Virus record (IMG/VR): IMGVR_UViG_3300047666_001143
Coordinates: 1-64,000 of that record
Direction: 5' to 3' (one strand)
From: a virus
Length of the DNA: 64,000 nt
Below the pieces are notes generated by a model. That model did not search any database. It was not told the DNA's origin and was given only the letters and a program-made list of their open reading frames with translations. Positions 1 to 19,183 of the stretch are shown here, in pieces. Positions within the stretch are counted from its first letter, which is position 1, and every line of letters begins with the position of its first letter. The position numbers and the translations under genes were made by a program.

Positions 1-57
1 AACTGTATTGTGTAACGGATTTAGCGGATATAAATGACAAACTTAAATAAAAATAAA

Positions 58-363
58 ATGAACATAGAAAAAGAGTTGGCGGATTTGAAAGAAAATATAT
101 TAAAAATCACAAGCCTTTACGGGACAACAGGTAACAACCAAAAAAGGGAATTACAATCCTCTTTTAACAAGCTAGAAGCAGCTATTTCTGTTACACGTTG
201 TTGTGATAAGTTGCCGAGTATAGAAAAACTATGGTCTATGGCTGACACTATTGTTGATAGACAGAAAAAGGTGCTTGACGCACCTAACAAAGAAACAATT
301 GATTGGGAGGATTTGACTGAGGATTGGTTTGATTGGTTAGGTGACGAAATAGTAGGCAATTAA
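58..363 (+). CDS. Hypothetical cassette-borne protein (VTRCC motif encoded by the internal GTT site)
   Basis: ORF 34..363; ATG at 58 follows an A-rich Bacteroidota-type leader. Confidence 0.75.
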   Translation: MNIEKELADLKENILKITSLYGTTGNNQKRELQSSFNKLEAAISVTRCCDKLPSIEKLWSMADTIVDRQKKVLDAPNKETIDWEDLTEDWFDWLGDEIVGN

Positions 364-413
364 TTACAACGTATCGCAGATATGCGTAGTTGTGTATTAA
401 AAAACAAAAAATT

Positions 414-620
414 ATGATAACGGAAGAAAAATATTTAGAAGCAAAAAAAATAGTAGAAAACTATAACGAGCAATTACGTATATCTGGTGTTGTACGTAGT
501 AAACGGTTAAAAGAAGAACAAGGCATCAAAGAAAAAGAATGTAGTGATCATTACTATTTACCGAGAGGTAAATGGCAAAGCGGTGTACAGTGCCAAGAAT
601 GTGGTAAAGTAATAGATTAG
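414..620 (+). CDS. Small cassette-borne protein with C-terminal zinc-ribbon-like CxxH...CxxC
   Basis: ORF 390..620, likely ATG at 414; CSDH...CQECG. Confidence 0.75.
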   Translation: MITEEKYLEAKKIVENYNEQLRISGVVRSKRLKEEQGIKEKECSDHYYLPRGKWQSGVQCQECGKVID

Positions 621-623
621 TTT

Positions 624-689
624 ATTACTTACAACTACTGATAAAGAAACTTAAACTGTTCAAAACATTGAAACACAATAATTTAAAAC
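624..689 (+). repeat. 66-bp exact direct repeat, copy 1 (candidate attI-like terminal site)
   Basis: attacttacaactactgataaagaaacttaaactgttcaaaacattgaaacacaataatttaaaac is identical to 18201-18266. Confidence 0.95.
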
Positions 690-832
690 CGTCCATCAAG
701 TGTAGTAGGTGTGATAAAACATTCAATAACGGATCAGAATATAGGACACATTTTTACACACATTTAGATGAGTGGTATAACTCAGAAAATAAAGAAGAGT
801 ATATTAAAAATACAACCAATCAAATAAATTAA
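668..832 (+). CDS. Small C2H2 zinc-finger protein (TTG start, 54 aa; not in the ORF track)
   Basis: Manual translation: LKHNNLKPSIK-CSRC-DKTFNNGSEYRT-HFYTH-LDEW..., which is C-x2-C-x12-H-x3-H. Confidence 0.6.
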   Translation: MKHNNLKPSIKCSRCDKTFNNGSEYRTHFYTHLDEWYNSENKEEYIKNTTNQIN

Positions 833-892: not shown

Positions 893-2047
893 ATGAATAA
901 AAATATTAGAAAATTAGATATTGAAAAAGTATTATTCTTCGATATCGAAACCGTGAGTGCAAACAAAGAATTAGATAAAGATTCAAGAGAGTATGATTCT
1001 TATGCTTGGTCAATTAGAGATGTACCTACTGGATTCGTCCCTCCTGCAAAAGATGTATTAATACACTATAAAAAGATGGCAGCATTAAAATCACAATTCA
1101 ATAAGATTGTTGTGATCAGTATTGGTTATGTTAAAGGAACTACACTATACTATAAATCTTTAGTTGGAGAACAGAAAGATGTTATTGAAGAATTTTATGG
1201 TATCGTGAATTCAACGGGTTTTAAATTATGCGGCCATAACATTATCGGCTTTGATGTACCTACTGTAAGAATGAAAGCTTTCGAGGAGAATATAGATTTT
1301 AATCTTATACCCGAAAGAATCAATGATGTAGATAAAAAACCCTGGCTAATTACCGAAGAGTTGTTGGATACAATGGTAATGTTAAAAGGTACTGCGTATT
1401 ACAATATATCTTTGGATGATGCATGTAGATTAGCTGGAGTTGAAACTAGCAAAGATGATATTACAGGAGGACAAGTAACAGAAGTTTACTACAACGAAGG
1501 TACTGAAAGAATTGCTAAATATTGTAATAAAGATGTTATTGCATCTGCCAGACTATTTTGTGCTATACAAGGTAAGCGTGGGTTTATAACTGAATGTATT
1601 GATAAGGGAGCTGAGGAGTTAAAAGAAAAAGAACCAATTAACGTGATTGATCACATATTAGCGTCAGGTGAACTTTCTCCAAAAGTTGTTGAAGCTATTG
1701 TAGAATTTACAGAAGAAAATAAATTAAACAAAGAGAATGTTCTTATATTAGTTAAGACGGCTATTTCAAACTCAAAAGAATTTCAGAAAGTTACAGACGA
1801 AGATATATATGAATTGAAAGAAGCTTTAGGTTTAGTTATTGATTATTCTAAAATTCAAGTTGTTGCTGATAAAGGAAATCTTGGTAAAAAAGAAGTTGAT
1901 ACAGTAATTTCTCAATATGTAAAATCAACTAAAAAAGTCAAACTTGAAATTATATCTTTAGTAGAGCAATATTTGACAGAGAACAACAAGATAGGGCAAA
2001 AAAGAGCCAAAGAATCTTTTGAATTTTTAAAAGATAACTTGAAGTAA
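893..2047 (+). CDS. 3'-5' exonuclease (DEDDy, PolB-exo-like) with C-terminal helical extension
   Basis: ExoI FFDIETV, ExoII GHNIIGFD, ExoIII YCNKDV. Confidence 0.8.
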   Translation: MNKNIRKLDIEKVLFFDIETVSANKELDKDSREYDSYAWSIRDVPTGFVPPAKDVLIHYKKMAALKSQFNKIVVISIGYVKGTTLYYKSLVGEQKDVIEEFYGIVNSTGFKLCGHNIIGFDVPTVRMKAFEENIDFNLIPERINDVDKKPWLITEELLDTMVMLKGTAYYNISLDDACRLAGVETSKDDITGGQVTEVYYNEGTERIAKYCNKDVIASARLFCAIQGKRGFITECIDKGAEELKEKEPINVIDHILASGELSPKVVEAIVEFTEENKLNKENVLILVKTAISNSKEFQKVTDEDIYELKEALGLVIDYSKIQVVADKGNLGKKEVDTVISQYVKSTKKVKLEIISLVEQYLTENNKIGQKRAKESFEFLKDNLK

Positions 2048-17372: not shown

Positions 17373-17456
17373 ATACCCTAAAACTCTGGGATATATGATT
17401 AGTAGCGTAAAAATTAATATGGAAAAAATAAGAGGTAATAAATTTAAAAATATAAA

Positions 17457-17677: not shown

Positions 17678-17917
17678 ATGAATGAGATTTTTAAAAGTAC
17701 AATAGGTAAGTGTTTTTTATACACGTTGTTAATTGCTTTTCTTTTTTGTGGCTGTAGCAATACCCAAACTAAAAATGTAGAAAATAGTTATGAGACTATA
17801 GTGATAGAAGGATGTGAGTATATTACATACAATAAATTTGGGGGTAATTATGGATATGGTTATATGGCTCACAAAGGTAATTGTAAAGCGTGTACTAAAA
17901 AAAATAATTGCCACTAA
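17678..17917 (+). CDS. Cassette-borne putative lipoprotein (YTLL motif from the internal GTT site)
   Basis: Hydrophobic N-terminus with LFCGC; tatacacgttgtt at 17718-17730. Confidence 0.7.
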   Translation: MNEIFKSTIGKCFLYTLLIAFLFCGCSNTQTKNVENSYETIVIEGCEYITYNKFGGNYGYGYMAHKGNCKACTKKNNCH

Positions 17918-17973
17918 CTTATTTGTGTATGATTAGTTTTGTGTAGGTTATTAATAAATTAAATAAAAAAGCA

Positions 17974-18195
17974 ATGGATATTAAACAAGAATTTAGAGAA
18001 GAAAAAAATATGGATGTTTACGCTATGAATGTAAATGATGGAAGTTTTAGCAATGTCTATGTAAAATGGCTAGAAGCAAAAATTAATTATACACGTTGTT
18101 GTACGGAGTTGTGCGATTGTGAAGAACCTTACAATGATATAGAAGCGAAACAATGTATGGGTTGCGGTAATTTAGTAGAATATGGACAAGATTAA
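17974..18195 (+). CDS. Cassette-borne protein with zinc-ribbon-like C-terminus (YTRCC motif)
   Basis: CDC...CMGCG; LEA...TRCC motif shared with ORF 58..363. Confidence 0.75.
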   Translation: MDIKQEFREEKNMDVYAMNVNDGSFSNVYVKWLEAKINYTRCCTELCDCEEPYNDIEAKQCMGCGNLVEYGQD

Positions 18196-18200
18196 GCACC

Positions 18201-18266
18201 ATTACTTACAACTACTGATAAAGAAACTTAAACTGTTCAAAACATTGAAACACAATAATTTAAAAC
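18201..18266 (+). repeat. 66-bp exact direct repeat, copy 2 (candidate attI-like terminal site)
   Basis: Identical to 624-689. Confidence 0.95.
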
Positions 18267-18275
18267 AATAAAATA

Positions 18276-18626
18276 ATGAAAAAACTAATTTTAATTTTAT
18301 TAACTGTAATTACATATTCAGTTAATAGTCAGAATACTTTTTACTTTTTTGAATCTACTGTGGTTCCAGAAGTAGACAATAAAAGTAATGTTAATAATAC
18401 ATTTTTATTTAATAATAACTCTTCACTGGTTAATGCCAATACATTTACAGATAATACTCCTATCTTGTTTATGCCACTTATGAATAATGAAAATATAAGT
18501 CAAGATTTATTGGAATTCGATGTGATCAGAAATTCTTTTGGCCATGATGAGTTTAATAAAAGTATGAATTATAATTTGTCCGAAATTAAACCTAATATTA
18601 ACTATTTTAAAAACAATAAAAAATGA
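18276..18626 (+). CDS. Putative secreted protein
   Basis: MKKLILILLTVITYSVNSQ, a Bacteroidota-type signal peptide. Confidence 0.65.
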   Translation: MKKLILILLTVITYSVNSQNTFYFFESTVVPEVDNKSNVNNTFLFNNNSSLVNANTFTDNTPILFMPLMNNENISQDLLEFDVIRNSFGHDEFNKSMNYNLSEIKPNINYFKNNKK

Positions 18627-19183
18627 AATACCTTAGCATTGATACAGAAACGACGGGTTTAAATTCAAAAACCTGCGAAATACTATCTTTCTCAGCAGTT
18701 TTGGAAGATACAGACAAACCAAATATACCTGTGGATGATTTACCACATGTACACTTCATCTTTAAAAAAGATTTTATAAAAGGAGAACCCTATGCTTTGA
18801 ATTTGAATAAAGATATCATAGAGATAATTAAAGAAGGTAAAGATGAAAGACTAATTAACGAACTTCAATTCTTTCCTAAATTCAGAGAGTTCTTGAAGGA
18901 AAATAATGTTGAAGGAAAATTAAAAGTGGCTGGAAAAAACTTCAGTTCATTTGACTTAAAATTTATAGATATACTTATGAATGAAGTTTGGGATTTTGGA
19001 TCCTCTATAAAATTCCACCATAGAGTTTTAGATGTTGGACCACTATTTGTTGATTTTAAAAATGACGAATGGATTCCAGACTTAAATATGTGCATGGAAA
19101 GAGCTGGAGTCAAAGGAACAGTGCAACATTGTGCATATGAAGATGCAAAAGATGTAATTAGAGTTTTAAGAACTAAATACTAA
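18623..19183 (+). CDS. DEDDh 3'-5' exonuclease (DnaQ/oligoribonuclease-like)
   Basis: IDTETTG, GKNFSSFD, HCAYEDA. Confidence 0.85.
   Translation: MKYLSIDTETTGLNSKTCEILSFSAVLEDTDKPNIPVDDLPHVHFIFKKDFIKGEPYALNLNKDIIEIIKEGKDERLINELQFFPKFREFLKENNVEGKLKVAGKNFSSFDLKFIDILMNEVWDFGSSIKFHHRVLDVGPLFVDFKNDEWIPDLNMCMERAGVKGTVQHCAYEDAKDVIRVLRTKY

What the first reader, a model, noticed from the sequence alone, without database searches (positions are those of the whole stretch)
1..635. Genes built on attC-like hairpins: a candidate integron-like cassette system with recombination sites embedded inside ORFs
Seen: each small gene has the layout AAC-(6-7 nt)-inner arm ... [leader + N-terminal codons] ... inner arm'-(3 nt)-GTT-outer arm ... 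[C-terminal codons + stop] ... outer arm'-AAC. Unit A: AACtgtattGTGTAACggatttagc (1-25) pairs with gctatttctGTTACACgttGTT (181-202), and GTTgtgataagttgccga (200-217) pairs with taggcaattaattacAAC (353-370). Unit B: AACgtatcgcagatatgcgtagttg (368-392) pairs with caattacgtatatctggtGTT (471-491), and GTTgtacgtagtaaac (489-504) pairs with gtttattacttacAAC (620-635, 14/16). Arm sequences differ between units but stay complementary within each unit, so the structure is conserved and the sequence is not. Established: integron attC sites are imperfect single-strand hairpins with AAC/GTT cores and asymmetric spacers. Inference: cutting at the AAC cores would excise whole genes as circles in which all four arms form one long hairpin. 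Unlike classical cassettes, one arm lies inside the coding sequence and the gene start lies in the hairpin loop.
Basis: partly seen in the sequence, partly recalled or inferred. Interest (0 to 1): 0.92.

Follow-up and report, generated by a model that had tools for sequence, protein, structure and literature searches.

The report
Phage gene cassettes with in-gene hairpin sites
The two small genes at the start of this marine phage contig are built from swappable DNA pieces bounded by folding AAC...GTT sites. One boundary lies inside the gene, so related phages join the same protein front half to many different back halves.

Summary
They are conserved. In eight phage contigs the stem joining unit B's 5' leader to codons 20-25 is 98.5% paired, with compensatory changes at 10 of 17 pairs. 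Each gene body has its own GTT...AAC complementary ends.

Homology between relatives starts and stops at the cores. Unit B is conserved from AAC to AAC. Unit A's front half stays about 99% identical to a Tara contig up to GTTGT, then drops to 34%. Database proteins join it to at least five other back halves.

In one relative a homologous array ends 52 nt before a 267-aa Xer/IntI-clade tyrosine recombinase. Across 31 loci with that enzyme I counted 132 such hairpins upstream on the same strand, against 15, 7 and 2 elsewhere.

My reading is an integron-like cassette array that lacks a recombinase in this 76-kb contig. The integron reading is supported, with three qualifications:
- The enzyme family is not IntI.
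- The crossover point is unresolved.
- Recombination is inferred, not shown.

Earlier notes of this scan describe the same system on other DNA. I found no published description beyond a few phage CALINs (Qi et al. 2023).

The parts
1..202 (+). Hairpin site A. Layout: AAC (1-3), 6-nt spacer, 5' arm (10-25), 155-nt loop, 3' arm (181-196), spacer gtt, GTT core (200-202). The loop holds the leader, the start codon (ATG at 34 or 58) and about 50 N-terminal codons of ORF A.
   Evidence: The arms pair 13/16. The same front module occurs at 85-98% identity in other metagenomic proteins and in L082. This is the weakest stem of the set.
34..363 (+). ORF A (109 aa, or 101 aa from the ATG at 58). No Pfam family. 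The front module ends at ...VTRC|C, where the GTT core lies.
   Evidence: Module swapping is shown in A4.
200..370 (+). Cassette body A. It runs from the GTT arm (200-217), through the C-terminal codons and stop, to the arm ending in AAC (353-370).
   Evidence: The ends pair 14/18 plus 2 G.T. The same back half is joined to two other front halves in P0002 and P0009. Identity to L082 falls from about 99% to 34% at 204/205.
368..491 (+). Hairpin site B (124 nt). Layout: AAC (368-370), 6-nt spacer, 5' arm (377-392), 78-nt loop, 3' arm (471-486), spacer gt, GTT (489-491). The loop holds the leader, ATG 414 and 19 codons.
   Evidence: The arms pair 14/16 plus 2 G.T. Covariation in 8 contigs: 98.5% of cells paired, 10 of 17 pairs with changes on both sides, 0 of 500 shuffles as good. 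Its length falls in the commonest site class, 120-128 nt.
414..620 (+). ORF B (68 aa). Front helix MITEEKYLEAKKIVENYNEQLRISGV, then a Cys-rich, zinc-ribbon-like back half. GTT is read in frame as Val.
   Evidence: The front half is joined to several different back halves in 7 viral contigs.
489..635 (+). Cassette body B. It runs from the GTT arm (489-504), through the C-terminal codons and stop, to the arm ending in AAC (620-635).
   Evidence: The ends pair 14/16. The L003 and L005 homologues keep the pairing through compensatory changes. Homology among the window, L003 and L005 stops at this AAC.
624..689 (+). Array cap. A 66-nt sequence that begins in the last arm. It is repeated exactly at 18201-18266.
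   Evidence: In L089 the same sequence starts directly after the AAC of a different cassette.
17916..18212 (+). Second array with the same layout, outside the finding's coordinates. Hairpin: AAC 17916-17918, arms 17925-17940 / 18079-18094, GTT 18098-18100. Body: 18098-18212. It carries gene 17974-18195.
   Evidence: It shares ACACGTTGTTGT with site A, and shares GTTGTACG with body B but reads it in a different frame.

Best explanation
Positions 1-635 hold a short array of an integron-like cassette system of Bacteroidota phages. This contig carries no recombinase.

The DNA alternates between two kinds of segment.
- Hairpin sites read AAC, a 4-9 nt spacer, a stem, a loop, the return stem, a 1-5 nt spacer, then GTT. 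Across relatives the loop ranges from 4 nt to well over 100 nt. In both sites here it holds the leader, the start codon and the N-terminal codons of a gene.
- Bodies read GTT...AAC, and their first and last 10-20 nt are complementary to each other.

Inferred mechanism: when the sense strand is single-stranded the site folds like an integron attC. The AAC/GTT box pairs, an asymmetric unpaired spacer follows, then a long stem and a variable loop. A Xer/IntI-clade tyrosine recombinase, encoded at the array end in relatives, exchanges strands at a core. This moves whole genes (AAC to AAC) and also swaps bodies behind a fixed front module at the in-gene GTT. In an excised circle a body's two ends would pair and extend the site into one long hairpin.

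Shown here: the structure, its covariation, the breakpoints at the cores, module reassortment, and the link to a recombinase in relatives.

Inferred: single-stranded folding in vivo, the cleavage position, circular intermediates, and whether the sites in this contig are still active.
For: - Not chance: a chain of four abutting repeats appeared in 0 of 60 shuffles.
- Stem B across 8 contigs: 98.5% paired, 10 of 17 pairs with double changes, 0 of 500 shuffles as good, slid controls 26-41% paired.
- Body ends pair with their own partner at 8.3 of 10 positions, against 4.4 of 10 for other units' partners.
- Homology among the window, L003 and L005 runs from AAC to AAC only.
- Window and L082 are about 99% identical up to GTTGT and 34% after it.
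- Front half A occurs with at least five other back halves beyond its own. Back half A occurs with two other front halves. Front half B occurs with several different back halves.
- In G003 the array holds a homologue of site B and of window gene 17678-17917. It ends 52 nt before a co-oriented 267-aa tyrosine recombinase (PF00589, 2e-31).
- At 31 recombinase loci the hairpin counts are 132 upstream on the same strand, 15 upstream on the opposite strand, 7 downstream on the same strand and 2 downstream on the opposite strand.
- A 46-nt minimal form with no coding content is nearly identical between unrelated flanks: 99.3% paired, 9 of 13 stem pairs covary.
- Non-Watson-Crick positions in the hairpin stems are 42 G.T against 7 A.C on the sense strand, so one strand is selected to fold.
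Against: - This contig has no tyrosine recombinase, and no remnant of one.
- The window's sites are weaker than those of relatives. Site B folded as DNA gives z = -0.96, and stem A pairs only 13/16.
- A covariance model of the 46-nt minimal site finds nothing credible in the window.
- G.T tolerance on the sense strand fits an mRNA structure equally well.
- The sites lack the bulged extrahelical bases typical of attC.
- No junction, circle or recombination event was observed.
Confidence: 0.75

Rival explanations
1. The stems are mRNA structures. Long-range pairing of the 5' leader and the 3' end with mid-ORF sequence would control translation, processing or stability of small early transcripts. 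No role in DNA recombination would be needed.
For: - The RNA fold of 1-640 has z = -4.2, and its minimum-energy structure contains three of the four stems.
- Wobbles are G.U on the sense strand: 42 G.T against 7 A.C.
- All arrays point the same way as their genes.
Against: - It does not explain the invariant AAC/GTT at every stem base.
- It does not explain homology breakpoints falling exactly at those cores.
- It does not explain near-identical 46-nt sites between unrelated genes in many phages.
- It does not explain the strict placement of arrays upstream of a tyrosine recombinase.
- No Rfam family matches.
- An RNA role could still coexist with recombination.
Confidence: 0.12
2. Ordinary phage mosaicism. 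Conserved short linker sequences at module borders promote homologous or microhomology-mediated recombination between co-infecting phages, with no dedicated enzyme. The hairpins would be incidental.
For: - Hairpins and bodies assort independently, with no one-sided linkage.
- This contig has no recombinase.
- Shared motifs such as GTAGT/ATTAC and ACACGTTGTT could serve as microhomology.
Against: - Covariation shows that pairing itself is selected, not sequence.
- The cores are only 3-5 nt, too short for homologous exchange.
- Arrays are tied to one recombinase family, with a fixed orientation and a conserved ...TAAC|TAT(A/T)ATATATA junction about 55 nt before its start codon.
Confidence: 0.08
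3. A chance cluster of inverted repeats in AT-rich DNA, noticed after the fact.
For: - Single repeats of 13/16 are common, at 1.25 per kb.
- Stem A is weak.
Against: - 0 of 60 shuffles give a chain of four.
- The arms are conserved by compensatory change in independent contigs.
Confidence: 0.02

Closest known systems
Integrons (IntI, attI, attC-bounded cassettes) and CALINs, meaning attC clusters without an integrase. This includes the few phage CALINs of Qi et al. 2023 (PMC9892861), one of them in Polaribacter phage P12002L.
   Same: - Cassettes form same-strand arrays.
- Sites are recognised by fold rather than sequence. Only AAC and GTT are invariant, with an unpaired asymmetric spacer, a stem and a variable terminal loop.
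- One strand is favoured to fold.
- The start of a cassette body is complementary to its own end, as for R'/R''.
- A tyrosine recombinase sits at one end of the array in relatives.
- Arrays without the enzyme exist, as here.
- General attC rules are taken from Loot et al. 2017 (PMC5371416).
   Different: - The enzyme has 267 aa. It scores 159 bits against the 265-bit cut-off for integron integrase, in two stretches.
- It lies downstream of the array and is co-oriented with it, not divergent upstream.
- End complementarity is 10-20 nt rather than 7.
- There are no bulged extrahelical bases. Conserved G.T pairs occur instead.
- Many sites carry a start codon and an N-terminal peptide in the loop, so the GTT core lies inside an ORF, mostly in a fixed frame.
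- Both site edges behave as breakpoints.
PeSL (promoter-early stem-loop) modular shuffling in T4-type phages. Cited from memory (Arbiol et al. 2010); I did not check the paper here.
   Same: Small early phage genes are flanked by repeated stem-loop elements and reshuffled between relatives.
   Different: - PeSLs are short local promoter hairpins used as homology for recombination.
- They do not lie inside ORFs.
- They have no AAC/GTT cores and no dedicated recombinase.
Shufflons and invertible segments (Rci, Hin/Gin). From general knowledge.
   Same: Site-specific recombination alters the C-terminal part of a protein while a fixed N-terminal part is kept.
   Different: - Those systems invert DNA between conserved double-stranded sites.
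- Here the sites vary in sequence and are almost all on one strand: 132 against 15.
- Back halves are replaced, not inverted.

Membership tests
Integron (sensu IntegronFinder: IntI + attC array) | An IntI integrase: a tyrosine recombinase carrying the IntI-specific insertion in the catalytic domain. | tested here: not met
   No PF00589 match in the 76-kb contig at E<=1, and no tblastn remnant. The enzyme next to the homologous array in G003 scores 159 bits against TIGR02249 (cut-off 265), in two stretches. Its best matches are XerA, IntI, XerC and XerD, all below cut-off.
Integron attC site | An imperfect hairpin with conserved AAC and GTT at the base, an unpaired central spacer, a stem and a variable terminal loop, recognised by structure. 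| tested here: met
   The geometry AAC, 4-9 nt, stem, loop, stem, 1-5 nt, GTT appears in the window (368-491, 17916-18100, and weakly 1-202) and in 342 detected sites in related loci. Covariation is shown.
Integron attC site | Extrahelical bases in the stem that set strand choice, and a length of 57-141 bp. | tested here: not met
   The stems have no bulges. They carry conserved G.T pairs instead. Site lengths are 46 nt, about 75, about 86, about 113 and about 124 nt, with a long tail. The window's sites are 124, 185 and 202 nt.
Integron attC site | Detected by the published attC covariance model (IntegronFinder / HattCI). | not testable with these tools
   That model is not in Rfam. The Rfam scan of 1-1000 found nothing.
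Integron attC site | Recombined as folded single-stranded DNA, with one strand strongly preferred. | tested here: inconclusive
   Sequence evidence only. Counts are 42 G.T against 7 A.C on the sense strand. The sense strand of the L003 site folds 4 kcal/mol better than the antisense strand. No biochemical test was possible.
CALIN (attC cluster lacking an integrase) | At least two sites close together with no integrase nearby. | tested here: met
   There are two sites within 635 nt, a second array at 17.9-18.2 kb, and no recombinase in the contig. This holds only if the sites are accepted as attC-like.
Integron platform layout | The integrase gene lies upstream of the array and is divergent from it, with attI and promoter Pc driving the cassettes. 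| tested here: not met
   In 31 relatives the recombinase gene lies downstream of the array on the same strand. Cassettes carry their own leaders and start codons inside the sites.

The most novel reading that the evidence does not exclude
A phage-borne, integron-like recombination system run by a simple Xer-type tyrosine recombinase. Its folded sites double as translation-start modules: the loop encodes the leader, the ATG and a short N-terminal peptide, and the crossover core lies inside the ORF in a fixed frame. The same machinery would then move whole accessory genes and also assemble new proteins by joining front halves to unrelated back halves.
Probability: 0.5. Interest if true: 0.9.

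Novelty: new variant of a known kind. Interest (0 to 1): 0.78.

Why it matters
Integrons are the textbook case of recombination sites read by fold rather than sequence, and they are regarded as bacterial devices. This would be a parallel system in phages of Bacteroidota, with a simpler enzyme and a different layout.

It would explain how these phages turn over their many small early genes. Because one core sits inside the reading frame, it would also be a natural mechanism for site-specific domain swapping. The prediction is directly testable with a recombination assay.

This window is a small member that lacks a recombinase. It still shows a very recent in-gene exchange: 99% identity falling to 34% at GTTGT.

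Tried and rejected
- **Chance:** rejected.
- **One palindromic repeat in alternating orientation:** rejected, because the arms differ between units.
- **Protein-level motif as the cause of the GTT core:** rejected. ACACGTTGTT and GTTGTACG are read in different frames in different genes, and the partner arm is non-coding.
- **Inversion (shufflon) reading:** inverting 200-370 gives an immediate stop, and sites are almost all on one strand.
- **Covariance model of the 46-nt minimal site (R1):** it found only one weak hit in the window (55888, E = 2.1) and missed the long-loop sites.
- **Linkage tests for which core is the crossover:** uninformative. 160 pairs of homologous hairpins have unrelated bodies on both sides, and none has a related body on one side only.
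- **Viral-contig searches with ORF A and with the 384-aa exonuclease:** nothing found.
- **Bacterial genome scan with the recombinase:** few close hits. Only a short Fermentimonas MAG contig shows the same junction sequence, so host carriage was not established.
- **Phage GenBank search:** only weak hits to Cellulophaga phages elsewhere in the first 3 kb.

Full report
**What the window is.** The window is the first 64 kb of a 76,218-nt linear IMG/VR viral contig. It has 30% G+C. Genes run on the + strand to about 41 kb and then on the - strand. Its few GenBank phage matches are to Cellulophaga phages. Positions 1-635 hold two small genes, ORF A (34/58-363) and ORF B (414-620). Neither matches a Pfam family.

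**Checking the observation.** The four inverted-repeat pairs are at the stated coordinates:
- 10-25 / 181-196: 13/16.
- 200-217 / 353-370: 14/18 plus 2 G.T.
- 377-392 / 471-486: 14/16 plus 2 G.T.
- 489-504 / 620-635: 14/16.

Single repeats of this quality are common, at 80 in 64 kb. The first kilobase has the most of any kilobase. A chain of four repeats, each starting within a few bases of the end of the previous one, occurs only here. It occurred in none of 60 dinucleotide shuffles. Only three GTTGT...ACAAC repeats of at least 13/18 exist in the whole genome: these two and a third at 18098-18212. The third has the same position in its gene, with GTT inside the ORF and AAC just after the stop. 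The AAC at 1-3 is the contig's first three bases.

**Conservation of the hairpin stem.** ORF B's front half (MITEEKYLEAKKIV..Y..QL.I..V) recurs in seven other viral contigs. I aligned the eight sites from AAC to GTT. The stem joining the 5' leader to codons 20-25 is paired in 98.5% of cells, and 10 of its 17 pairs change on both sides. No shuffle out of 500 matches this, and sliding the partner columns drops pairing to 26-41%. One G.T pair is invariant.

The changes couple non-coding leader bases to coding changes about 80 nt away. For example, CGT (Arg) in the window becomes AAT (Asn) in L004, and the leader changes GCG to ATT to match.

**Conservation of the body ends.** In 18 units, a body's first 13 nt pair with its own last 13 nt at 8.3 of 10 variable positions. 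They pair with other units' ends at only 4.4 of 10. The consensus is GTT-RNNN-GTAGT ... ATTAC-NNNY-AAC.

**Breakpoints at the cores.**
- The window, L003 and L005 share unit B from the upstream AAC to the downstream AAC. They are unalignable outside it.
- ORF B's front half is followed, starting at GTT, by several different back halves. Each has its own complementary ends.
- ORF A's front half, ending ...VTRC|C, occurs at 85-98% identity in database proteins with at least five other back halves. ORF A's back half occurs with two other front halves.
- At the DNA level, a Tara scaffold (L082) matches the window almost perfectly from the ATG at 58 to 204. From 205, immediately after GTTGT, identity is 34%.

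The in-gene core is therefore a real and recent recombination breakpoint.

**Link to a recombinase.** This contig has no tyrosine recombinase (PF00589, E<=1) and no remnant of one. The contig G003 behind L008 does. Its array holds a site B homologue, a homologue of window gene 17678-17917, a 46-nt coding-free hairpin and one more cassette. It ends 52 nt before a co-oriented 267-aa gene with PF00589 (2e-31) and PF13495.

That protein has 69 close relatives (53-100% identity) in viral contigs. I examined 31 loci that have 3 kb on each side. My scanner found 132 AAC...GTT hairpins upstream on the same strand, 15 upstream on the opposite strand, 7 downstream on the same strand and 2 downstream on the opposite strand. 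Most loci share a junction ...TAAC|TAT(A/T)ATATATA about 55 nt before the start codon.

The enzyme scores below the cut-offs for integron integrase (159 against 265 bits, in two stretches), XerA, XerC and XerD. I therefore call it a simple Xer/IntI-clade recombinase, not an IntI.

**The site family.**
- The 342 detected sites fall into length classes of 46, about 75, about 86, about 113 and about 124 nt. Window site B is 124 nt.
- The 46-nt class has no coding content and is nearly identical between unrelated flanks in many contigs. It is 99.3% paired, with 9 of 13 stem pairs covarying.
- In the 120-134 nt class, 64 of 92 sites have an ATG in the loop whose frame runs through GTT for at least 15 more codons. 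In 51 of those 64, GTT is an in-frame Val codon. Starting a gene inside the site is therefore normal for this class.
- Non-Watson-Crick stem positions are 42 G.T against 7 A.C on the sense strand. The L003 site folds 4 kcal/mol better on the sense strand.

**Interpretation.** The architecture matches an attC in several respects: conserved AAC/GTT only, an asymmetric unpaired spacer, a stem, a variable loop and a strand bias (rules from PMC5371416). The complementarity of each body's two ends is what integron cassettes show at R'/R'', but longer.

If the folded sense strand is cut at its 5' AAC, as attC bottom strands are, whole genes move. The GTT breakpoints would then need either the other strand or another route. 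My linkage tests could not decide, because hairpins and bodies assort independently.

**Rivals.** A purely mRNA role fits the RNA fold (z = -4.2) and the G.U bias. It does not explain the cores, the breakpoints, the mobile 46-nt site or the recombinase linkage.

**Limits.** Recombination, circles and strand choice are all inferred. The window's sites look weaker than those of relatives, and no enzyme is present in the contig. CheckV estimates the contig as 53% complete. Read-level tests were unavailable.

**Literature and earlier notes.** Qi et al. 2023 report 17 CALINs in phages, one in a Polaribacter phage. My searches found no description of Xer-type phage arrays or of sites inside ORFs. 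Earlier notes of this scan describe the same system in many other genomes. I used them as leads and re-tested the main claims here.

Noticed in passing
window 624-689 and 18201-18266; L089:9725-9790: An exact 66-nt repeat caps both arrays. In another viral contig (L089) the same sequence begins directly after the AAC of an unrelated cassette. Different genes follow it in all three places. It may be an array-terminal site or a mobile promoter module.
   Followed up: partly
window 893-2047 and 18623-19183: Each of the two arrays is followed within about 250-400 nt by an exonuclease gene. The first is PolB-exo-like (PF10108), the second RNase T/DnaQ-like (PF00929). I did not test whether this pairing is meaningful.
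   Followed up: no
window 17382-17412: A solitary 5' half-site. AAC-N9-TATGATTAGTAGCGTAAAA matches the 5' arm upstream of the ORF A-type front module in L082. It has no convincing partner arm here and looks like a relic of a rearranged site.
   Followed up: partly
window 17678-17917: A 79-aa predicted lipoprotein with a lipobox-like LFCGCS. It carries ACACGTTGTT in a third reading frame. A homologue sits as a cassette in the recombinase-linked array of G003 (L012 2615-2908, minus strand).
   Followed up: partly
window 1-3: The contig starts exactly at an AAC core. If the population differs in what lies upstream of this junction, an assembler would break there.
   Followed up: no
window 668-832: A 54-aa ORF with weak C2H2 zinc-finger matches, below the Pfam cut-offs. 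Its TTG start lies inside the 66-nt cap.
   Followed up: no
L074 and L077-L081: Several viral contigs keep only the first 19-84 codons of the recombinase gene next to arrays. This suggests repeated loss of the enzyme while the arrays persist.
   Followed up: no
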